Below are positions 51,912 through 60,141 of a stretch of 64,000 nucleotides of DNA, in pieces. This DNA is from a virus (lineage: Duplodnaviria; Caudoviricetes). The stretch spans positions 1 to 64,000 of the IMG/VR virus record IMGVR_UViG_2654587994_000003; one strand, 5' to 3'. The notes under the pieces are model-generated. The model did no database searches. It saw nothing but the letters and a program-made list of their open reading frames with translations, and had not been told where the DNA came from. The number at the start of each line of letters is the position of its first letter. The first letter of the stretch is position 1. Both the position numbers and the translations under genes were made by a program.

Positions 51912-51936
51912 GGAACGCCCGGCTTATTATCTCGTT
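51912..51936 (+). promoter_or_regulatory. Sigma-EcfG type promoter GGAAC-N16-CGTT
   Basis: Exact consensus 35 bp upstream of the DUF6894-like gene. Confidence 0.7.
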
Positions 51937-51970
51937 CGTCAAATTACAGACGAGAACAGGGATTTAGGTA

Positions 51971-52240
51971 ATGCCGCGGTACTACTTTCACGTTCGAGAC
52001 GCCGAAGGTCTGTCCGTGGATTTCGAGGGCGCTGATTTCGCTAGTGACGAGCGAGCCTGCGACGAGGCGAAGCAAGCTGCAAAAGAAATGCTTGCGGAGA
52101 GAATTCTGAGAGATGAGCTTCTGGACGGCACCATGTTTGAAGTGTTCAAATCAGCCGGCGTTTTGGTCGCGAAAATCCCGCTGATGTCTGTAATGCGTTT
52201 CAAACTTTCGATCAGTCAAAGATTTGACGGTCGCGAGTGA
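51971..52240 (+). CDS. DUF6894-like protein
   Basis: MPRYYFHVRD..DFEG.D..EA..AAKEMLAE. Confidence 0.8.
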   Translation: MPRYYFHVRDAEGLSVDFEGADFASDERACDEAKQAAKEMLAERILRDELLDGTMFEVFKSAGVLVAKIPLMSVMRFKLSISQRFDGRE

Positions 52241-53734: not shown

Positions 53735-53872
53735 CACGGCCGCGTGATTTTGACATCCCTGAAGGGCAACTTGCCGCCCCGGATACGCTTGGGTTGCTAG
53801 TGTTGCCTGCCCGCTACAGCATATTTCATCGAGTTGTTGTTTAGTGGAGGCTCAAATTTAGGAGTTCAGACC

Positions 53873-54535
53873 ATGAAAAAGACACTCGCGACCCTGGCTT
53901 TTGTTTTGGCAGCGTCCACCGCTATGGCTGCTGACGCGGTTTCTGAAGTACCAGCAGCGCCTGTTGCTGATGTAGCACCAGCATTCAGCTGGACTGGCTT
54001 CACCATCGGTGTTCAGGGTGGCTACAACTGGAACAACCAGGACATCGAAATCAGCGGCACCGCAGGTAGCTTCTCAGAAGATTTTGACGGCGGTATCCTC
54101 GGCGGCTTCGTTGGTTACAACTATGACTTCGGCAACAGCTGGGTAGTCGGTCTTGAAGCTGATTTCGATAAGAACTGGGCAGACAACACTGCGTTCGGCG
54201 GCGCACTCACCTATGGTTTCGACTGGCAGGGTTCGGTTCGCGGCCGCGTTGGATACGCCTTTGACCGCGCTCTCGTGTACGGTACTGCCGGCTGGGCTTA
54301 TGCTCGCGGCTATGCGGACGTAGCGGGCTTCGGTGAAGAGAAAGAAACCTTCAACGGCTACACCCTCGGTGTTGGCCTTGATTATGCCTTCACGGACAAC
54401 GTTTTCGCCCGTCTGGAATATCGCTACACCGACTTCGGCGACAAGACGTTCGATTTCGGCGGCACTGGTGGCGGCACCATCAACTCTGACATCGATCAGC
54501 ACGCTATCCGTGTCGGCCTCGGCGTAAAGTTCTGA
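53873..54535 (+). CDS. Omp25/RopB-family outer-membrane beta-barrel (moron)
   Basis: AMAADAV signal, FSWTG..G..GGY, RGRVGYAFDR, RLEYRYTDFG, terminal F. Confidence 0.92.
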   Translation: MKKTLATLAFVLAASTAMAADAVSEVPAAPVADVAPAFSWTGFTIGVQGGYNWNNQDIEISGTAGSFSEDFDGGILGGFVGYNYDFGNSWVVGLEADFDKNWADNTAFGGALTYGFDWQGSVRGRVGYAFDRALVYGTAGWAYARGYADVAGFGEEKETFNGYTLGVGLDYAFTDNVFARLEYRYTDFGDKTFDFGGTGGGTINSDIDQHAIRVGLGVKF

Positions 54536-54556
54536 TAGCCATTCGCTATGATCATG

Positions 54557-54585
54557 AAAAGCCCGGCCATAGTGTCGGGCTTTTT
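54557..54585. terminator. Bidirectional intrinsic terminator
   Basis: AAAAGCCCGGC-CATAGT-GTCGGGCTTTTT between convergent genes. Confidence 0.8.
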
Positions 54586-54589
54586 GTCT

Positions 54590-54934
54590 TTACCCAGACC
54601 TCGTCGTCCTTGGCTTCGACTGATTTTCAACAATCCTATCGACGCGCATGGTCATCTTGTCGACGGCGTCCTTCACGGCGCCGATAGCGCCCATGATCTG
54701 CTCCGTCTGCTCGCGAAGGCCGGATTTGGAAACATACGTTTCGGCGACGTGGAGCCTATGGGCGGCAAGCTCTTCCCTCGCCAGAGAAGCCATCGCCGAG
54801 GCCGCAGACGCCGCTGCAGACGCCTCCGTCTTTGCCGCACCGATCTTCGCGTCGACGTACTTCCACAGGCCGAAGAAGAAACCGAAGAGCATCACGAAGA
54901 AACCCGCAACCGCCATGATCTCGGCGCCGGTCAC
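54590..54934 (-). CDS. Holin-like membrane protein
   Basis: N-terminal TM plus coiled coil at end of lysis cassette. Confidence 0.6.
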   Translation of the reverse strand: MTGAEIMAVAGFFVMLFGFFFGLWKYVDAKIGAAKTEASAAASAASAMASLAREELAAHRLHVAETYVSKSGLREQTEQIMGAIGAVKDAVDKMTMRVDRIVENQSKPRTTRSG

Positions 54935-55122
54935 GGTTTCACCCCGCACAGTTTCATCAGCTTCTCATTCTCAGCCAAGATTTGCCGCTTTGTTTCTGGC
55001 GTCATCTGGTCATCGACAGAAGGACGCACCGGGCGCGCGATATCGCAGTAGCTACCGCTTGTCGCGCATCCACTTGCCAAGAGCGTCATCAACGCCAGCG
55101 TCATCCAAATTCCTAATTTCAT
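54931..55122 (-). CDS. Rz1-like lipoprotein spanin
   Basis: LASG-C lipobox; CDIARP..QILAENE..LCG. Confidence 0.75.
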   Translation of the reverse strand: MKLGIWMTLALMTLLASGCATSGSYCDIARPVRPSVDDQMTPETKRQILAENEKLMKLCGVKP

Positions 55123-55291
55123 TTTCGACATCCCCGGCCTTCTTGATGGCCTTGGCATTTGCTGCGGCCTGTTCGTCTTTTGCCGCGGAGCGCCCTGCCC
55201 TCTGGCCATACAAAAAGACGCCCGCGAGGATCGCGAGCGCCGTACCGATTGCGGCTAGATAGCCTTTGAGTTTTGCCCACAAGAGGATCAA
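55052..55291 (-). CDS. Rz-like inner-membrane spanin
   Basis: N-terminal TM; overlaps Rz1-like gene. Confidence 0.72.
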   Translation of the reverse strand: MILLWAKLKGYLAAIGTALAILAGVFLYGQRAGRSAAKDEQAAANAKAIKKAGDVENEIRNLDDAGVDDALGKWMRDKR

Positions 55292-56214
55292 ACCACCACC
55301 TCCTTCCCGCGCCAGCTATTCCAGCGGCGAGCGATGACATCGCGATTGCGATAGGCGACATAGGCAACAGCAGCGACAGCGACGCCGGCGACGATCCACC
55401 ACCATGGAAGGCCTGCCACGAAAGCGAGTAAGCCTGAGCTTGCAGCTGAGCCAACACCCTTCGTGACAGCTTCCCTTGCTGTCGATGCGTCGCGCCGAAG
55501 CTGTGCGAGCGTGGCGGGACCGATGATGCCATCGGCGATCAGGTGTGGGTGCGCCTTCTGATACGCGATCACAGCGGCCTTTGTCTTCTCGCCCATCCAG
55601 CCGTCGATGGCGCCGGGATTGAGGCCAGCCGCAGTCAGCAGCTCCTGCGCTTCCTTCACAACCGGATCAGGCTGGGCGGGCGGCTCGGCGGTAGCCTCCT
55701 TGGTTGCGCTACCTACGCCGGTGTAGATGCCCTTTTCGAAGAGCAGGGCCTCTTCCTTGCGGCGGCGCACGAGACCTGGAAGCTTCTTGCCTTTCGCCGT
55801 GTTGTAGTTGGAGGCAAGATGAGCAGCTGCCTTCTTAATCTGGCCTTTGCGCCAGTAGTCGGCCCATGTCCAATTCATGGCGCCGACGCCGAGATTGAAG
55901 GTGACAGAAGTGGCCGCGTCGAGCTCGTGCTGCTTGCGGTCCGCGGGAGAACCGGCAACGACAGCTGGCACGTACTCAGCGGCGAGCACAGCGTCGAGGA
56001 TGGCATCGCTTTGCGCAGCTGTGATCTTGGTCTTGCCTGGCACGAGCTTCGTGATGCCGATTTTGGCCAGCTCGCGGCGAACGGAATCGCTGCGCATCGT
56101 GAATCCGGTTCCGATCGTCGGAACACCGACAGGATCAAGGTAGGCGGTAAGCGGATTGCCCTCATGCAGGCGCACGAAAGCCCTCCCCTGTGTGGAGATT
56201 TTGGTGATTGGCAT
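55288..56214 (-). CDS. Endolysin: GH24 lysozyme + peptidoglycan-binding domain + C-terminal TM
   Basis: HEG..AYLDPVGVPTIGTG, FNLG, GLVRRRKEE, DGWMG.KT..YQ..DGIIGPAT. Confidence 0.92.
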   Translation of the reverse strand: MPITKISTQGRAFVRLHEGNPLTAYLDPVGVPTIGTGFTMRSDSVRRELAKIGITKLVPGKTKITAAQSDAILDAVLAAEYVPAVVAGSPADRKQHELDAATSVTFNLGVGAMNWTWADYWRKGQIKKAAAHLASNYNTAKGKKLPGLVRRRKEEALLFEKGIYTGVGSATKEATAEPPAQPDPVVKEAQELLTAAGLNPGAIDGWMGEKTKAAVIAYQKAHPHLIADGIIGPATLAQLRRDASTAREAVTKGVGSAASSGLLAFVAGLPWWWIVAGVAVAAVAYVAYRNRDVIARRWNSWRGKEVVV

Positions 56215-56240
56215 TGATTTTCCTTTTTAAGGGAGCGCTG

Positions 56241-56265
56241 GGAACATTAAGGCGGCCTTCGCGTT
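56241..56265 (+). promoter_or_regulatory. Sigma-EcfG type promoter GGAAC-N16-CGTT
   Basis: Exact consensus directly before a two-hairpin unit. Confidence 0.7.
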
Positions 56266-56270
56266 GAAGC

Positions 56271-56338
56271 CGTCGCCATGTCCCCAACTCCATGGCCTAA
56301 AGACCCGCGCACACATCCCCCCGCTGCGCGGGTCTTTT
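56271..56338 (+). ncRNA. Candidate stress-induced sRNA with two C-rich loops
   Basis: GCCATG-TCCCCAACTC-CATGGC, then AAAGACCCGCGCA-CACATCCCCCCGC-TGCGCGGGTCTTTT terminator. Confidence 0.6.
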
Positions 56339-56377
56339 GCTGCTATTGATACAGCCGATACTTGCAGATATGGGAGA

Positions 56378-56459
56378 AGCGCCGCACGTCCCCTGAAACA
56401 GGCTGCGGTATTGAGGCCTCGGCGCTTGCGAGGAGCGACGGGCCTCTTTTGTTTTGTGG
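56378..56459 (+). ncRNA. Candidate sRNA, copy 1
   Basis: 74/82 identical to 57066-57147; two hairpins plus T-tract; TTGATA-N17-TATGGG upstream. Confidence 0.6.
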
Positions 56460-56539
56460 GTTATGGGTGCCGGGTTACGCTGCCTGCTCCAGGGTCATTC
56501 ACCCTCCGTTCAGGCCCGGCACAGCACTATCGAGCTTGT

Positions 56540-56564
56540 GGAACCGAAGTCACAGGCGCACGTT
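56540..56564 (+). promoter_or_regulatory. Sigma-EcfG type promoter GGAAC-N16-CGTT
   Basis: Exact consensus 27 bp upstream of the lipoprotein ATG. Confidence 0.7.
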
Positions 56565-56590
56565 TGATTGCGTTATTGGGAGATAAGATC

Positions 56591-56851
56591 ATGAAGCTTC
56601 TGACCGCAGCAATTGCGCTCGTATCAGTCGGTATTCTTAGTGGATGCGTAGATGATAGCGGATATCGCTCAGGCGGGTATTACTCGTCGGGTGTCTATTA
56701 TCGCTCATACGATAGAGACAGGTATTACCGGGATTACGACCGCCGAAACTGGCGTCACCACAGAGAATGGCGCGATCGGCGGGAAGGAAGGGGTGATTAC
56801 CGCTACCGCCCGCCGCGTGATGGCCAGTTATATGGCCGTCTGATTAATTGA
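56591..56851 (+). CDS. Small Arg/Tyr/Asp-rich lipoprotein (moron)
   Basis: LSG-C lipobox; GGGAG SD. Confidence 0.75.
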   Translation: MKLLTAAIALVSVGILSGCVDDSGYRSGGYYSSGVYYRSYDRDRYYRDYDRRNWRHHREWRDRREGRGDYRYRPPRDGQLYGRLIN

Positions 56852-56874
56852 CAAAGTCTCGTTGTTTGGTTGGC

Positions 56875-56907
56875 CTAAACGGCCGGCCAAGCGATGGGAG
56901 CGATTTC
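56875..56907 (-). pseudogene. Orphan 3' end of a tail fibre assembly gene (EIAPIAWPAV*)
   Basis: Matches C-terminus EIAPIAWPIIL* of 57933..58406. Confidence 0.65.
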
Positions 56908-56950
56908 CGTTCGTATTGACCGTCTTAGTTTGGTCGGACTGCACTGATCC

Positions 56951-57013
56951 GACATAGCCGCCCTAGTGACCAAACATAAGGTCAAGAGCGACGGGAAGCG
57001 TTTCCCGAGCCAT
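56951..57013 (-). pseudogene. 5' remnant of a GH108-type lysozyme (MARETLPVALDLMFGH*GGYV)
   Basis: AGGAGA SD; HEGGY motif with the Glu codon replaced by TAG at 56963-56965. Confidence 0.7.
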
Positions 57014-57065
57014 GATAGTCTCCTGATTGTTGATTTGACGGCGAGACAGTTGGTCACCATACCAG

Positions 57066-57147
57066 AGCGCCGCGCGTCCCCTGAAACAGGCTGCGGCATA
57101 GAGGCCCAGGCGCTTACGAGGAGCGACTGGCCTCTTTTGTTTTGCGG
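57066..57147 (+). ncRNA. Candidate sRNA, copy 2
   Basis: Repeat of 56378-56459 with a compensatory stem change; TTGACG-N17-CATACC upstream. Confidence 0.6.
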
Positions 57148-57290
57148 ATCAGGCTAAGCCGTCGCTAACCCCCTGAATTTTAGTGGGTCATAATTCACGC
57201 CATAGCTGTTTATTTTGCGAAGCGCCGACAATTTTCCGTTGTCTTCAGCATTCCTAATATGTCAATAAGGAGGCGGAAAAGGGGCGTTTT

Positions 57291-57932
57291 ATGGATCGGC
57301 AAATTCTCTTTCACTGTCGCAGGTTAGCAAATATTGTTGGAGCGGGCCCAAAACGCATAGCGCTGGTCGGCAACGGCGAAAACGCTCGCGGATTTGGCTC
57401 CGAAATCGACTCTCACGATTTCGTGGTACGGATGAACCGCGCAATTCATTTCGGCGAAGCAGGCACAAAGACAGATGCTTTAGCAGTCATTAATTGGAGC
57501 GGGCCCGGTCGATGGATGACCAACGGAGAAACCCCCATCAACGCCGAAGCTTTAAGGGCGGCTAAATCGATCTGGCTACCAATGCCTCCTGAGGATATGG
57601 AATCCGTGAAAAATGACCAACCAGGCACCTTTGAGTGGCCGACGTACGTCGACTTCACGTCAGAGGTGATAGATAATCTGGTTGACGGACGTCCCTATAT
57701 TAAGTTCCCACCGAATATTTGGCGGTCTCTAACAAAAGAACTTCGCGGCTTAGGGGCGGCCAAGACGCAGGCCTCCAGCACTGGAGCACTCGTGCTGGCT
57801 TACTTGGTTAGGGTTTGGCCTAGATCAAAAGTCACGCTTTATGGCTTCACTCACGAGGGGTGGGATGGGCATCCTTGGGAGCAAGAGAAGGCGTGGATCC
57901 GGAATCTGGATCGAGTCCCGTATAAGCCATAG
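57291..57932 (+). CDS. GT29 (sialyltransferase-like) glycosyltransferase (moron)
   Basis: IALVGNG..G.EIDSHDFVVRMN (motif L), SSTG..LYGF (motif S), HPWEQE (motif VS). Confidence 0.75.
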   Translation: MDRQILFHCRRLANIVGAGPKRIALVGNGENARGFGSEIDSHDFVVRMNRAIHFGEAGTKTDALAVINWSGPGRWMTNGETPINAEALRAAKSIWLPMPPEDMESVKNDQPGTFEWPTYVDFTSEVIDNLVDGRPYIKFPPNIWRSLTKELRGLGAAKTQASSTGALVLAYLVRVWPRSKVTLYGFTHEGWDGHPWEQEKAWIRNLDRVPYKP

Positions 57933-58406
57933 CTACAGTATGATTGGCCAAGCGATGGGAGCAATCTCGTCAAGGAACTTCTCGACGGTCGGCTGCGCGC
58001 GCTGGCCCGCCTGCACTTTGGCCAACTCGCCGTAGGAGTACCGCCAAACATTATCGCGCCATGCGACGAAAGCCATAGCCTCTGCCGCCCACCTTGGAAT
58101 TGTTGACCCGATGTAGGAGGCGAGCGTCACGCCGTCGCGGAACTGCTTCTCACGCGCAGTCTCATCGACAAGGTTCTGGATGGCGTTTTCGTAGTCGGTG
58201 ATGGTGGGTGGCGCGGCGGTCGACTCGACCACGACAACCTCCCCATCCACGTAACGACGACTACCGGAATTTTCCAGAAATTCGAGGTGCTGCCCTTCTG
58301 TGATAACAACTGCGTCCGTTGGGATGACTGCTTCTGGATCGCTGCATGCCGCCGTAACCCAGAAGCCGAGCGGAAACCCCAACTCATCGAATTTTGCATA
58401 GATCAT
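57933..58406 (-). CDS. Tail fibre assembly / chaperone protein
   Basis: Follows tail fibre; IPTDAVVIT, WAAEA.AFVAWRD.VW. Confidence 0.78.
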   Translation of the reverse strand: MIYAKFDELGFPLGFWVTAACSDPEAVIPTDAVVITEGQHLEFLENSGSRRYVDGEVVVVESTAAPPTITDYENAIQNLVDETAREKQFRDGVTLASYIGSTIPRWAAEAMAFVAWRDNVWRYSYGELAKVQAGQRAQPTVEKFLDEIAPIAWPIIL

Positions 58407-59923
58407 GGCGCCAGTCCTATTGCTATCCAGTCGACTCTGGCCGCTCCAGACCCGAACGCGGCACCAGTAGACCCAATCTTGCAGGAAACTATTACCCCGG
58501 TTGCCTGAGGCCAGGGGCTTGTTCTGTATTGAGATAAAACAAGATTACCTCCAGCCGTTGCACTTTCCCCATTCCAGCAAACAAAGTTGTAAGACGATGA
58601 TGAGGAAAACGCGGTTGGAAACGTAACGATTCCATTTCCTGCGCCATCGGTTGTTATTACGGTCGTTCCCCACTGCATCAACCGGCCGTTCGGCAGCTTT
58701 GTCCAGCCTGTGCCTGATGTCGCCCCCATGGTTGCAAACATCGTCGCGCCATCAGCGTCATCGAGCAGCGAGCGCGCCAATGCCGTGAGATCGGTCAACG
58801 ATGCTGCACCAGCTCCTGTGAAATACGGAAGCTTGTTGGCGGCGGGCGTCAAAGCATGAAGAGCAGCAATCGCACCGGTGATAGCCTTGATGAGCTTCCC
58901 AGTGGTCGTGTCGAACGCCACAGGGAAATTGTCGACCGCACTTGACGGCCCGACAACATCACCCGTGCCCGACCCATCCGTGCCTTTGCGCGCCAGCAGA
59001 CGCCAGTAGGCATTACTCTCGGTCGGCAAGGTCGGAGGCGCATTGCCCGTGGTCGGCTGGAGCGCAATCCACGTGGAGCCGTTATTGAGAACGATATCAT
59101 TCGCAGCATAAGCCGTCGCAGCACTGTACGCGCCGCGATCCACCACGCCCTGAGTGCCGGAGCGAGCGAACAGCAGCCATTGTGTGTTCTCGGTTGTCGG
59201 AATCGTCGGCGGCGCGTTGCCCGTCGTGGCAACCTTGGCGATCCACGTCGATCCGCCATACTGCACGATATCGCGGATAGCGTAGGCCGTGCCTGCGCTA
59301 TAGTTGCCGCGCTGATTAACGCCAGCAGGACCGACAGGACCAGTGATATAGGACGGCGCACTCCAGTCACCCGACGTGGCCGAGTTCTTGAAATAGAGCG
59401 CAGACCGGCCGTCTCCAATGTCGATAACGAGAACGGAGAAGCCAGCGGCAGCGCCGTTGTATGCCGCCCTGCCCGCAAGGTTCGCCACCCAAGCATCATA
59501 CTGAACGCCCTGAACCAGAGCCGCCTTGTTGATCGTGCCAAACACACCCGGTCCAATGCCAATCGGAATATCATCGGTGCCAACCGAGATTTCAGACAGG
59601 CTGTCGAGGTTGCCATTCGACAACGAAGCCAGCAGCCGGCGCATGGCCTCGACTGCGGCAATCGTTGGCGAGGTCAGTTCGACCTTGTAAGGCGCGTCCG
59701 TCTGCGCAGGACCGGGCCAATCATCAGCAAGCAACAGTTCCGTATCGCTGATGATCTGCTCGATAACGATCGGGCGGCCGACATGAATGCCAAACTTGTC
59801 TCCAACCTTGATCGGCGTCAGACCAGCAACTTCCGTCAGCCAGCCCGTATCCGTGCCGGTGACAGTGCGAGAGCCGACAGCAACGGTAGCCGTACCGTCG
59901 CCGTACCATGTGGTGTTAGCCAT
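58403..59923 (-). CDS. Tail fibre
   Basis: GTATV..VTGTDTGW N-domain, two Y..GT.Y..DIV repeats, AANKLPYFTG, GWTKLPNGRLMQWG tip. Confidence 0.88.
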   Translation of the reverse strand: MANTTWYGDGTATVAVGSRTVTGTDTGWLTEVAGLTPIKVGDKFGIHVGRPIVIEQIISDTELLLADDWPGPAQTDAPYKVELTSPTIAAVEAMRRLLASLSNGNLDSLSEISVGTDDIPIGIGPGVFGTINKAALVQGVQYDAWVANLAGRAAYNGAAAGFSVLVIDIGDGRSALYFKNSATSGDWSAPSYITGPVGPAGVNQRGNYSAGTAYAIRDIVQYGGSTWIAKVATTGNAPPTIPTTENTQWLLFARSGTQGVVDRGAYSAATAYAANDIVLNNGSTWIALQPTTGNAPPTLPTESNAYWRLLARKGTDGSGTGDVVGPSSAVDNFPVAFDTTTGKLIKAITGAIAALHALTPAANKLPYFTGAGAASLTDLTALARSLLDDADGATMFATMGATSGTGWTKLPNGRLMQWGTTVITTDGAGNGIVTFPTAFSSSSSYNFVCWNGESATAGGNLVLSQYRTSPWPQATGVIVSCKIGSTGAAFGSGAARVDWIAIGLAP

Positions 59924-60141
59924 TATTCGGACGCTCCGTTACCGGTGTCGACGGCGTCGCGCGCCAGGCGCAGATCGGCTTCAAGGCCGTTGATCTTGTC
60001 GAGGAGGGTTTTGTTTTCCTGCTTCTGCATTACGAGATGCTGAGCGAGCAGCAAGGTCCGCTGCTTCAGGAATTCTTCGCGCACTTCTGCTTCCTGCAGG
60101 GCGACGAGGGCGTCGACCTGCATCTGATTGCCGGTTGTCAT
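59923..60141 (-). CDS. Small coiled-coil tail protein
   Basis: Coupled between tail tip and tail fibre genes. Confidence 0.7.
   Translation of the reverse strand: MTTGNQMQVDALVALQEAEVREEFLKQRTLLLAQHLVMQKQENKTLLDKINGLEADLRLARDAVDTGNGASE

What the first reader, a model, noticed from the sequence alone, without database searches (positions are those of the whole stretch)
56241..57147. Cluster of candidate prophage sRNAs with C-rich (anti-Shine-Dalgarno) loops, antisense to the late transcript just upstream of the endolysin
Seen: three promoter-hairpin-terminator units without a credible ORF within 900 bp. Unit A (56271-56338) follows an exact GGAAC-N16-CGTT promoter and shows TCCCC and TCCCCCC in its loops. 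Units B and C (56378-56459, 57066-57147) are 74/82 identical, contain CGTCCCC, have a C-G to A-T compensatory change in the terminator stem, and have different TTGAnn-N17 promoters at nearly the same offset. Known: alphaproteobacterial sRNAs such as Caulobacter GsrN and the cuckoo/alpha-r14 RNAs use C-rich loops, and GsrN depends on the general-stress sigma factor. Inference: this is a phage-encoded sRNA module that regulates host mRNAs or holds back lysis-gene expression.
Basis: partly seen in the sequence, partly recalled or inferred. Interest (0 to 1): 0.8.

Follow-up and report, generated by a model that had tools for sequence, protein, structure and literature searches.

The report
Small-RNA gene cluster in Agrobacterium prophage
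Between the tail-fibre and lysis genes of an Agrobacterium prophage sit three likely small-RNA genes, one with a stress-sigma-factor promoter and two that copy a host small RNA, so the phage may tap into host RNA regulation; expression is not yet shown.

Summary
The sequence features are real. The claim of "no credible ORF" is wrong: an 86-aa lipoprotein gene (56591-56851) lies between units B and C and has its own GGAAC-N16-CGTT promoter.

Unit A (about 56271-56341) is a conserved module next to the lysis-gene start in Agrobacterium phages and prophages. GGAAC at N16 spacing stands upstream in 16 of 16 homologues found by terminator sequence alone. Its flanks diverge.

Units B and C belong to an Agrobacterium-restricted RNA family found in 22 of 48 genus genomes. 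The family includes a chromosomal copy between cysN and tRNA-Pro(CGG). Two stem pairs covary, and the apical CGUCCCCUGAAACA is invariant in canonical copies.

That motif has an exact 14-nt complement at the 5' end of another conserved, non-coding, sRNA-like host gene, which I call RNA-X.

No Rfam family reaches threshold. No RNA data show the transcripts.

Best reading: accessory small-RNA genes transcribed opposite to the late genes and acting in trans through C-rich loops. Control of lysis by antisense pairing remains a rival. This is a new variant of prophage-encoded small RNAs.

The parts
55288..56214 (-). Endolysin gene (308 aa), followed downstream by spanin-like genes. Its start codon lies 27 nt from the -35 box of unit A, on the other strand.
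   Evidence: Pfam Phage_lysozyme 3.7e-22 plus PG_binding_1; PHROG endolysin 1.1e-64.
56241..56265 (+). EcfG-type (ECF sigma) promoter of unit A: GGAAC-N16-CGTT.
   Evidence: Exact match. GGAAC at N16 spacing stands upstream in 16 of 16 homologues found by terminator sequence alone; the -10 box is CGTT in 13, CATT in 2 and TGTT in 1, and the spacer varies.
56271..56341 (+). Unit A, a predicted RNA of about 65-70 nt. Hairpin 1 is 56275-56296 (loop UCCCCAACUC). The terminator hairpin is 56299-37 (loop CACAUCCCCCCGC), followed by a U-run.
   Evidence: Fold -29.8 kcal/mol, z = -5.5. 20 distinct homologues are aligned in A1/A3. Loop indels of 1-2 nt exclude a conserved reading frame. Rfam hits are sub-threshold only: 6C at 32.4 bits and ar14 at 20.3 bits.
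56346..56374 (+). Sigma-70-like promoter of unit B: TTGATA, 16-17 nt, ATATGG.
   Evidence: Read from the sequence. The same element is conserved in homologues where a B-type unit follows unit A. The generic scan did not flag it.
56378..56457 (+). Unit B, a predicted RNA of about 80 nt. Hairpin 1 is 56381-56409 and presents CGUCCCCUGAAACA. The terminator hairpin is 56413-56446, followed by a U-run.
   Evidence: Best match to covariance model R2, 105.4 bits. Fold. Covarying stem pairs.
56540..56564 (+). Second EcfG-type promoter (GGAAC-N16-CGTT), in front of the lipoprotein gene.
   Evidence: The same motif stands before the homologous genes in L142, L012 and L042. RNA-library contigs of runs X11 and X13 begin at about 56575-56585.
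56591..56851 (+). Small lipoprotein gene (86 aa, lipobox LSGC, Tyr/Arg/Asp-rich tail), an accessory (moron) gene.
   Evidence: No Pfam or PHROG match. Covered by contigs of 337 and 349 nt in two RNA runs.
56875..56907 (-). Remnant of the 3' end of a tail-fibre assembly gene (...EIAPIAWP), a recombination scar.
   Evidence: Direct repeat D3 with 57946-57968, 91% identical. ORF ends compared.
56963..57013 (-). Tiny ORF MARETLPVALDLMFGH with a GGAGAC ribosome-binding site, divergent from unit C. Possibly the stub of a replaced lysis-cassette gene.
   Evidence: Sequence. The blastn hits to window 56953-57035 fall in Sinorhizobium plasmid records (80 of the 88 records with any match). One locus was read and encodes MARETLPVALELMFGG, with mostly synonymous differences.
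57035..57063 (+). Sigma-70-like promoter of unit C: TTGACG-N17-CATACC.
   Evidence: The same TTGAYTGACGGCGAG...CATAGG context occurs in RR1-A, L012, L015, L128 and L177, each time directly beside a minus-strand gene start.
57066..57145 (+). Unit C, a paralogue of unit B.
   Evidence: model R2 at 99.6 bits.
57291..57932 (+). Glycosyltransferase family 29-like gene (213 aa), an accessory gene convergent with the tail-fibre assembly gene.
   Evidence: Pfam Glyco_transf_29 1.2e-9.
57933..59923 (-). Tail-fibre assembly gene (57933-58406) and tail-fibre gene (58403-59923), which give the direction of late transcription.
   Evidence: PHROG tail fibre families and a weak tail fiber assembly match; Pfam Gp53-like_C and CBM_5_12.

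Best explanation
The 1.7 kb between the tail-fibre assembly gene and the endolysin gene is an accessory (moron) island. It is read on the strand opposite to the phage late genes and is built from self-contained promoter-to-terminator modules. Three modules are small-RNA genes.

Unit A is a phage-specific RNA of about 65-70 nt. It would be transcribed from an EcfG-type (general stress response) promoter. It presents C-runs, (G/A)UCCCC, in the loops of both hairpins.

Units B and C are RNAs of about 80 nt transcribed from sigma-70-like promoters. They are phage-borne copies of an Agrobacterium chromosomal small-RNA family. Their first hairpin presents the motif CGUCCCCUGAAACA.

Inferred mechanism:
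- The RNAs are made in the lysogen, unit A mainly under stress.
- They act in trans by pairing their C-rich loops with G-rich partners.
- For B and C the most specific predicted partner is the 5' hairpin (loop GGGGACGA) of a conserved host sRNA-like transcript, RNA-X. Pairing would start as a loop-loop kiss and extend to a duplex of 14-15 bp.
- By adding extra copies of the host RNA, the phage would shift that host circuit.

Shown here: the sequence anatomy, the conservation pattern, covariation in B/C hairpin 1, the distribution among genomes, and the complementarity.

Inferred only: transcription, dependence on the sigma factor, pairing in vivo, and any phenotype.
For: Unit A
- A scan with the terminator arms alone found 19 viral loci, and 16 carry unit A. 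All 16 have GGAAC at N16 spacing upstream; the -10 box is CGTT in 13, CATT in 2 and TGTT in 1. The spacer varies.
- Three further copies in two genomes have the same motif: L141 and L142 in G001, and L147 in G193.
- In 13 pairwise comparisons unit A is 75-90% identical to its homologues. The 27 nt before it are 32-79% identical and the 40 nt after it 42-67% in 11 of 13.
- Unit A stays 76-82% identical where the lysin gene is unrelated, at 54-57% (L019 and L029).
- Every loop variant keeps a C-run, and 1-2-nt indels rule out a coding frame.
- The T-run follows the hairpins on the + strand only.

Modularity
- Phage Rivra has A and B followed by different + strand cargo.
- RR1-A has a C-type unit and two more sRNA-like units but no + strand cargo.
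- In L039, L042 and L142 unit A is followed directly by the lipoprotein module.

Units B and C
- Similarity between the two copies begins where their different promoters end.
- Model R2 matches 22 of 48 Agrobacterium genomes, 21 of them at E<=1e-12. It matches 2 of 151 sampled genomes of the family, both also in the genus set.
- A chromosomal copy with its own promoter lies next to tRNA-Pro(CGG) in 5 of 5 loci checked and after cysN in 1 of 1 checked.
- In 48 confident members, stem pair 7-39 is CG 30, UA 13, UG 5 and pair 11-32 is AU 22, GC 17. Overall 97.4% of cells are paired, against 37-51% when the partners are slid.

Partner
- The complement TGTTTCAGGGGACG occurs exactly once outside the RNA genes in each of 2 of 2 genomes searched. 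My own estimate of the chance expectation is about 0.04 per genome.
- In both genomes it sits at the predicted 5' end of a promoter-to-terminator unit. That unit is found in 27 of 48 genus genomes.
- The motif is invariant in 28 of 28 copies. A 1-nt indel excludes the one candidate ORF.
- Cofolding gains -12.6 kcal/mol for B and -13.4 for C over the separate folds.
- A control 15-mer from a variant loop has no exact match in 4 genomes.

EcfG-type motifs
- All 3 GGAAC-N16-CGTT matches in the window stand before + strand units.
Against: - No transcript has been shown. The laid runs give either long DNA-like contigs or only the lipoprotein gene.
- No Rfam family reaches its gathering score.
- Covariation is thin. 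Unit A has one varying pair (GC 12, GU 6, AU 2), and its terminator stem was fixed by the search pattern.
- In the strict B/C set only 5 of 22 pairs change on both sides, and 12 of 500 shuffles reach that number. The changes may reflect few evolutionary events, and the alignment was fitted to the model.
- B and C alone do not fold better than shuffles (z = -0.8).
- The homologues are closely related phages, so part of the conservation is shared ancestry.
- GGAAC/CGTT-like boxes are used by several ECF sigma groups, so the assignment to EcfG is an inference.
- Some family members carry a different first-hairpin loop (L032, L038, L040, L108, L128, L004) and cannot pair with RNA-X.
- Two copies (L008, L012) lack the U-run.
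- Co-occurrence of the R2 family with RNA-X (21 of 21 genomes with a strong R2 match) may simply follow phylogeny.
- No extended complement to the unit A loop exists in 3 host genomes.
Confidence: 0.6

Rival explanations
1. The units are cis-acting antisense RNAs. Each is complementary to any late transcript that runs from the tail-fibre genes into the endolysin gene. Pairing would trigger cleavage or block read-through, which would keep the lysis genes silent in the lysogen or time lysis.
For: - The units lie on the strand opposite to the late genes.
- An A-type or C-type unit always starts within a few tens of nt of the first lysis-gene start codon, even when that gene is of a different type. 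The starts seen are MPITKIS..., MATVRD..., MARRINAAG... and MTAVTAA....
- In RR1-A three such units fill the 418-nt gap between the tail-fibre assembly gene and the lysozyme gene, with no other cargo.
Against: - The B/C family also has a chromosomal member between cysN and tRNA-Pro, with nothing opposite it. The RNA therefore works without a cis target.
- The conserved part is a loop motif with a trans complement.
- The tail-fibre/lysis junction is a recombination joint, with the scar at 56875-56907, where accessory genes would collect anyway.
- No late transcript across the region has been shown.
Confidence: 0.2
2. The units are not regulators. They are intrinsic terminators or insulators that bound the accessory cassettes and stop + strand transcription. 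Their upstream 'promoters' and loop motifs are inherited passengers.
For: - Each unit ends in a strong + strand terminator.
- B and C fold no better than shuffles.
- Copies with a decayed U-run exist in L008 and L012.
- No expression data exist.
Against: - A bare terminator does not need an invariant GGAAC-N16-CGTT 30 nt upstream across 16 of 16 independently found copies.
- It does not need a conserved first hairpin with covarying pairs, or an invariant 14-nt loop motif with an exact partner elsewhere.
- Unit A has nothing upstream on its strand to terminate, because the endolysin gene there runs the other way.
Confidence: 0.12
3. The units are 5' leaders or attenuators that control the downstream + strand protein genes (the lipoprotein gene after B, the glycosyltransferase gene after C).
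For: B ends 134 nt before the lipoprotein gene and C ends 146 nt before the glycosyltransferase gene, measured from the unit ends in the parts list. In Rivra the A+B pair precedes + strand cargo.
Against: - The lipoprotein gene has its own EcfG-type promoter between unit B and the start codon. RNA contigs begin there and not at B.
- The cargo differs or is absent in relatives that keep the units.
- The chromosomal family member is followed by a convergent tRNA gene, not an ORF.
Confidence: 0.06

Closest known systems
GsrN of Caulobacter, and the putative GsrN-like sRNAs of Rhizobiaceae (Tien et al. 2018, eLife, PMC5869019; passages and section 14 read)
   Same: Unit A has a small-RNA layout behind a sigma-EcfG/SigT-type promoter (-35 GGAAC, -10 CGTT). 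It has an exposed cytosine-rich loop of the kind that pairs with G-rich targets.
   Different: - No detectable homology. The unit A model R1 matches only prophage copies, in 2 of 48 Agrobacterium genomes.
- Unit A is carried by a phage and is not beside the phyR-nepR-ecfG locus.
- It is shorter, with two hairpins that both carry C-runs.
Alphaproteobacterial ar14 / cuckoo RNAs (Rfam RF02344; NfeR1 in S. meliloti, name recalled)
   Same: Rhizobial small RNAs with C-rich hairpin loops that can act as anti-Shine-Dalgarno seeds. Their genomes hold several copies.
   Different: Unit A scores 20.3 bits against a gathering score of 58.8. It has no CCUCCUCCC motif and two hairpins rather than three. 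B and C give no ar14 match at E<=10.
6C RNA of Actinobacteria (Rfam RF01066)
   Same: Two hairpins, each with a C-run in the loop. This is the best Rfam match to unit A (32.4 bits, E 0.2, full length).
   Different: The score is below the gathering score of 47. The family belongs to another phylum and is chromosomal. The resemblance is one of architecture, most likely convergent.
Bacteriophage-encoded anti-sRNAs AgvB and AsxR of enterohaemorrhagic E. coli (Tree et al. 2014, PMC4104026; search listing and start of abstract seen, details recalled)
   Same: Small RNAs encoded in accessory regions of prophages that pair with host small RNAs and re-wire host regulation.
   Different: As recalled, those RNAs mimic an mRNA target in order to sponge a host sRNA. 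Here the phage carries copies of a host sRNA itself, and the predicted partner is a second host sRNA-like transcript. Nothing here has been tested experimentally.
Phage morons (accessory transcription units; PMC3594210, search listing and start of abstract seen)
   Same: Self-contained promoter-terminator units inserted between late genes and oriented against them. Their presence varies among related phages.
   Different: Three of the five modules here encode RNAs rather than proteins. Two of the five modules, unit A and the lipoprotein gene, carry an ECF stress-sigma promoter.

Membership tests
Rfam ar14 (RF02344) | Covariance-model score at or above the gathering score (58.8 bits) | tested here: not met
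   20.3 bits, E 1.4, over 56204-56339.
Rfam ar14 (RF02344) | CCUCCUCCC motif in the hairpin loops (feature recalled; also visible in the model consensus) | tested here: not met
   The loops read UCCCCAACUC and CACAUCCCCCCGC.
Rfam 6C (RF01066) | Covariance-model score at or above the gathering score (47 bits) | tested here: not met
   32.4 bits, E 0.2.
Rfam 6C (RF01066) | Two hairpins with C-rich loops | tested here: met
   Fold; alignment to the model.
GsrN-type general-stress sRNA | Sigma-EcfG-type promoter (GGAAC, 16-17 nt, CGTT) directly upstream | tested here: met
   Exact in the window. GGAAC at N16 spacing stands upstream in 16 of 16 copies found without using the promoter. This is sequence evidence only.
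GsrN-type general-stress sRNA | Exposed C-rich loop near the 5' end | tested here: met
   Hairpin 1 loop UCCCCAA. It is kept in 16 of the 20 aligned sequences and altered in L011, L019, L031 and L034.
GsrN-type general-stress sRNA | Homology to GsrN, or position beside the phyR-nepR-ecfG locus | tested here: not met
   R1 gives strong matches only to prophage copies, in 2 of 48 genus genomes. The matches in genome G001 lie on contigs C8 and C10, and none is at its NepR locus on C6 (L209).
GsrN-type general-stress sRNA | Expression dependent on the general stress response | not testable with these tools
   No suitable reads were available.
Phage moron / accessory transcription unit | Own promoter and terminator, orientation against the flanking late genes, variable presence among related phages | tested here: met
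   The promoters are predicted from sequence only.
Phage-encoded RNA that pairs with a host sRNA (anti-sRNA kind) | Extended complementarity to a host small RNA | tested here: met
   Exact 14-nt complement at the 5' end of RNA-X in 2 of 2 genomes searched; the motif is invariant in 28 of 28 copies. That RNA-X is an sRNA is itself a prediction. Pairing in vivo is not testable here.
Type I toxin-antitoxin (antisense RNA beside a small toxic peptide gene) | Adjacent small hydrophobic toxin ORF that is conserved as coding sequence | tested here: not met
   The 16-aa ORF beside unit C is not a membrane-helix peptide. The only candidate ORF in RNA-X is broken by a 1-nt indel in relatives, and its differences are all non-synonymous.

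The most novel reading that the evidence does not exclude
Agrobacterium temperate phages carry a kit of small RNAs wired to host signals. An EcfG-driven RNA (unit A) reports host stress. One or two extra copies of a host small RNA (units B and C) take over a host RNA-RNA switch. Their CGUCCCCUGAAACA loop kisses the GGGGACGA loop of the conserved host transcript RNA-X and opens its 5' hairpin. The prophage would then reset a host regulatory pair to favour lysogen fitness, prophage stability or exclusion of other phages. A virus copying a host small RNA in order to out-titrate that RNA's natural partner has, as far as my searches go, not been described in Alphaproteobacteria.
Probability: 0.25. 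Interest if true: 0.8.

Novelty: new variant of a known kind. Interest (0 to 1): 0.62.

Why it matters
Prophage-encoded small RNAs are documented mainly in enterobacteria. Nothing comparable turned up for Agrobacterium or rhizobial phages in the searches I ran.

If the reading is right, the locus offers:
- a phage gene under the host general stress sigma factor, which would link host stress directly to prophage output;
- a clean case of a phage borrowing a host small RNA, with a concrete and testable partner;

All of this can be tested with Northern blots and loop mutants in available strains. If the RNAs are not expressed, the locus is just an unusually tidy set of terminators.

Tried and rejected
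- RNA evidence. One run search and one lay. Runs X5 and X7 hold the whole 3.2 kb inside contigs of 28.8 kb and 3.5 kb at flat depth, so they look like DNA and say nothing about transcripts. X11 and X13 cover only 56584-56910. No statement on expression of A, B or C is possible.
- Rfam. No match at gathering scores in 54000-60000, nor in the chromosomal or RNA-X loci.
- Partner for unit A. The complement of hairpin 1 has no match in 3 genomes beyond the units themselves; counts equal the control.
- Partner for the variant first-hairpin loop of L032. None found in 4 genomes.
- Target inside the phage window. Only the units' own antisense strands match.
- Pairing with endolysin codons 9-11 (CAGGGGA, 7 nt). 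I considered this by eye and dropped it as too short and too far from the start codon.
- Type I toxin-antitoxin reading. Rejected; see the membership test.
- RNA.duplexfold on full-length RNAs gave values no better than shuffles and is not used. Only the cofold gain is used.
- Units D and E of RR1-A. Absent from the window.
- Literature. No paper held the motifs. Wilms et al. 2012 (PMC3384568, term search only) does not mention cysN, tRNA-Pro or phage. Supplementary sRNA tables are closed, so the host RNAs may already be listed there under other names.
Full report
**Setting**

The window belongs to a 108.5-kb virus record. Around the finding, the minus strand carries:
- a tail-fibre gene (58403-59923);
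- a tail-fibre assembly gene (57933-58406);
- further down, an endolysin gene (55288-56214) and spanin-like genes.

The 1.7 kb between them is read on the plus strand. In order, it holds unit A, unit B, an 86-aa lipoprotein gene (56591-56851), a scar of a tail-fibre assembly gene end (56875-56907), a tiny minus-strand ORF (57013-56963), unit C and a glycosyltransferase family 29-like gene (57291-57932).

**Check of the observation**

- GGAAC-N16-CGTT is exact at 56241-56265. The pattern occurs 3 times in the window against 0.59 expected.
- Unit A folds into two hairpins at -29.8 kcal/mol, z = -5.5. The loops hold UCCCC and UCCCCCC.
- B and C are an 82-nt repeat, 90% identical, and the only copies in the contig.
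- Each unit ends in a hairpin followed by a T-run on the plus strand. On the minus strand no U-run follows the hairpins.

Two statements fail.
- The region is not free of credible ORFs. The lipoprotein ORF has a lipobox, 102-aa homologues in three other prophages, and its own GGAAC-N16-CGTT at 56540-56564. It is covered by contigs of 337 and 349 nt in two RNA-library runs. These contigs start at about 56575-56585, where that promoter would start transcription. Contigs cannot prove transcript ends, so this is a weak hint.
- The C-G to A-T 'compensatory' change between B and C dissolves in the family. All four combinations of the two sites occur (alignment A2).

**Unit A**

Agrobacterium phage Rivra has units A and B in the same place. 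They lie beside a 927-nt lysozyme gene and are followed by a methyltransferase gene and a glycosyltransferase gene on the unit strand.

To test the promoter without bias I scanned viral contigs with the terminator arms only.
- Of 19 loci, 3 are unrelated terminators and 16 carry unit A.
- All 16 have GGAAC exactly 16 nt before a -10 box, which is CGTT in 13, CATT in 2 and TGTT in 1. The spacer differs among them.
- Three further copies in two Agrobacterium genomes show the same motif: L141 and L142 in G001, and L147 in G193.

In the 20-sequence alignment, the stems and both boxes are fixed. The spacer, the 5' tail and the loop flanks vary. Loop lengths differ by 1-5 nt, and every loop variant keeps a C-run. 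A reading frame is therefore excluded.

Unit A stands out from its surroundings in 13 pairwise comparisons.
- Unit A itself is 75-90% identical to its homologues.
- The 27 nt before it are 32-79% identical.
- The 40 nt after it are 42-67% identical in 11 of 13 comparisons.
- Where the neighbouring lysin is an unrelated gene (L019, L029; 54-57% identity), unit A is still 76-82% identical.

Structural covariation is almost absent. One pair shows GC 12, GU 6, AU 2, and the terminator stem was fixed by the search.

A covariance model of the RNA part (R1) gives strong matches in 2 of 48 Agrobacterium genomes and in 1 of 151 sampled genomes of the family. All strong matches lie beside a lysin start. 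Unit A is thus a sporadic, phage-borne element.

Rfam gives only sub-threshold matches: 6C at 32.4 bits against 47, and ar14 at 20.3 bits against 58.8.

**Units B and C**

A motif scan found 10 of 10 viral loci to be family members. In genome contigs, 3 of 12 loci were members and the other 9 were chance matches in unrelated sequence.

Two upstream contexts recur:
- directly after unit A;
- directly beside, and divergent from, the start of a minus-strand gene with its ribosome-binding site (RR1-A, L012, L015, L128, L177 and unit C of the window).

Each context has its own sigma-70-like boxes, and similarity between contexts begins where a transcript would start.

Model R2 matched 22 of 48 Agrobacterium genomes, 21 of them at E<=1e-12. 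In the family sample it matched 2 of 151 genomes, both also members of the genus set.

Most genus matches are a single chromosomal copy with a conserved promoter region. It lies next to tRNA-Pro(CGG) in 5 of 5 loci checked and downstream of cysN in 1 of 1 checked. A second sRNA-like terminator unit precedes it.

Comparison of chromosomal and phage copies supports hairpin 1. The chromosomal stem reads GUCGCG/CGCGAC and the phage stem reads GCCGCA/UGCGGC.

On 48 confident members (E<=1e-9):

| Measure | Value |
|---|---|
| Pair 7-39 | CG 30, UA 13, UG 5 |
| Pair 11-32 | AU 22, GC 17, GU 1, other 5 |
| Cells paired | 97.4% |
| Cells paired with slid partners | 37-51% |
| Cells with changes on both sides | 37 (11.9 in shuffles; 0 of 500 reach it) |
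| Pairs with changes on both sides | 5 of 22 (12 of 500 shuffles reach it) |

The looser 61-row set looks stronger, with 17 of 21 pairs changed on both sides. It includes weak hits, so I do not rely on it. The alignment is fitted to the model and the changes may be few events. I call this moderate support.

Between the stems, the apical CGUCCCCUGAAACA is invariant in all canonical members, chromosomal and phage alike. Six members carry other loops on the same terminator scaffold: L032, L038, L040, L108, L128 and L004.

**A specific partner**

I searched two Agrobacterium genomes for the complement of the loop motif.
- Each genome gave exactly one exact 14-nt match apart from the RNA genes themselves. 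I estimate about 0.04 expected by chance per genome.
- Both matches sit in the same place: at the predicted 5' end of an A+T-rich unit of about 145 nt. The unit has a CTTGAC-N17-CTTAGA promoter and a strong terminator. Its fold gives z = -3.5.
- This unit, which I call RNA-X, is present in 27 of 48 genus genomes. It is not in Rfam.
- GTTTCAGGGGACGACTGAAA is invariant in 28 of 28 copies. The second hairpin varies on both arms. A 1-nt indel breaks the only candidate ORF.

In RNA-X the motif forms a 5' hairpin, UUUCAG/CUGAAA, with the loop GGGGACGA. The exposed GUCCCC of B and C can kiss that loop and then extend over the 5' arm. Cofolding gains -12.6 kcal/mol (B), -13.4 (C) and -15.7 (chromosomal copy) over the separate folds. 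Unit A gains only -3.8 and not through its loops.

All 21 genomes with a strong R2 match also have RNA-X, but this may only reflect a clade. A control 15-mer from a variant loop has no exact match in 4 genomes. The unit A loop has no extended complement either.

**Interpretation**

The modules shuffle independently among related phages:
- A+B with other cargo in Rivra;
- a C-type unit plus two further sRNA-like units and no cargo in RR1-A;
- A followed directly by the lipoprotein module in L039, L042 and L142.

This is the behaviour of self-contained accessory units.

I think the most likely account (0.6) is that A, B and C are small-RNA genes expressed from the prophage and acting in trans through C-rich loops. 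Unit A would be under the host general-stress sigma factor. B and C would be extra copies of a host RNA whose natural partner is RNA-X.

The units hug the first lysis gene whatever its type. Against it, the chromosomal family member has no cis target.

Pure terminators (0.12) and leaders of the downstream genes (0.06) fit the data less well.

**What is known**

- The EcfG/SigT promoter boxes and C-rich-loop sRNAs under that sigma factor are established for Caulobacter GsrN and predicted for Rhizobiaceae (PMC5869019, passages and section 14 read; PMC8103513, passages read).
- Phage-encoded RNAs that pair with host sRNAs are known in E. coli (PMC4104026, listing and start of abstract seen).
- My searches found nothing on small RNAs of Agrobacterium phages or on these motifs.
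- Supplementary sRNA catalogues could not be read, so the two host RNAs may already be listed there under other names.

**Verdict**

The feature is real and conserved, and it is more interesting than a pair of terminators. Every functional statement still rests on sequence alone.

Noticed in passing
window 56540-56851 (+): An 86-aa lipoprotein gene with its own GGAAC-N16-CGTT promoter. 102-aa homologues with the same promoter occur in three other prophages. Two RNA-library runs hold a contig of about 340 nt covering just this gene.
   Followed up: partly
window 56963-57013 (-); locus L005 about 2000-2060; locus L004 about 2840-2885: A 16-codon ORF, MARETLPVALDLMFGH, with a strong ribosome-binding site. 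Blastn hits to this stretch fall in Sinorhizobium plasmid records, which make up 80 of the 88 records with any match. The one Sinorhizobium locus read differs mostly at synonymous sites. In an Agrobacterium plasmid the same start runs into a different tail. It may be a conserved mini-protein or a recurrent gene stub.
   Followed up: partly
window 56875-56907 and 57946-57968: A 23-nt repeat, 91% identical. The first copy is a leftover of the 3' end of a tail-fibre assembly gene, which marks a past recombination that inserted or duplicated accessory modules.
   Followed up: no
window 57291-57932 (+): A sialyltransferase-family (GT29-like) glycosyltransferase gene lies inside the prophage, convergent with the tail-fibre assembly gene and abutting it base to base. 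In phage Rivra the same slot holds a methyltransferase gene and another glycosyltransferase gene. Surface modification is a possible function.
   Followed up: no
window 51912-52240 (+): The third GGAAC-N16-CGTT of the window stands 35 nt before an 89-aa ORF (MPRYYFHVRDAEG...). All three matches in the window therefore precede + strand units.
   Followed up: partly
locus L002 (phage RR1-A) 3140-3425; also L004, L007, L014, L032, L033: Two further sRNA-like promoter-to-terminator units lie between the C-type unit and the tail-fibre assembly gene. One contains ...CCAACGACACGAAUGCCAAGAACAGGCAUC.... The other has the layout GCCGUCGG...CCGCAGCGGC plus a terminator and matches model R2 weakly. Both are absent from the window.
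   Followed up: partly
loci L152-L162, L168, L171 (Agrobacterium chromosomes), about 1320-1590: Tandem sRNA-like units between cysN and a convergent tRNA-Pro(CGG) gene. The second is the chromosomal member of the B/C family. Neither is in Rfam.
   Followed up: partly
locus L179 about 945-1138 and locus L180 (Agrobacterium chromosomes); loci L181-L208: RNA-X: a conserved, A+T-rich, non-coding promoter-to-terminator unit of about 145 nt, found in 27 of 48 genus genomes. Its 5' hairpin is exactly complementary to the B/C loop. Two divergent paralogues (L207, L208) keep the same 5' hairpin.
   Followed up: partly
loci L008 (2448-2532) and L012 (1153-1237): B-type units whose terminator hairpin is not followed by a U-run. 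The sequence changes right after the stem, as if recombination had cut there.
   Followed up: no
window 53834-54535 (+) and 54525-54583: An outer-membrane beta-barrel protein gene lies on the + strand just beyond the lysis cassette. It ends in a terminator that gives a weak isrJ-like Rfam match (E 1.5). It is either the prophage edge or another accessory gene.
   Followed up: no
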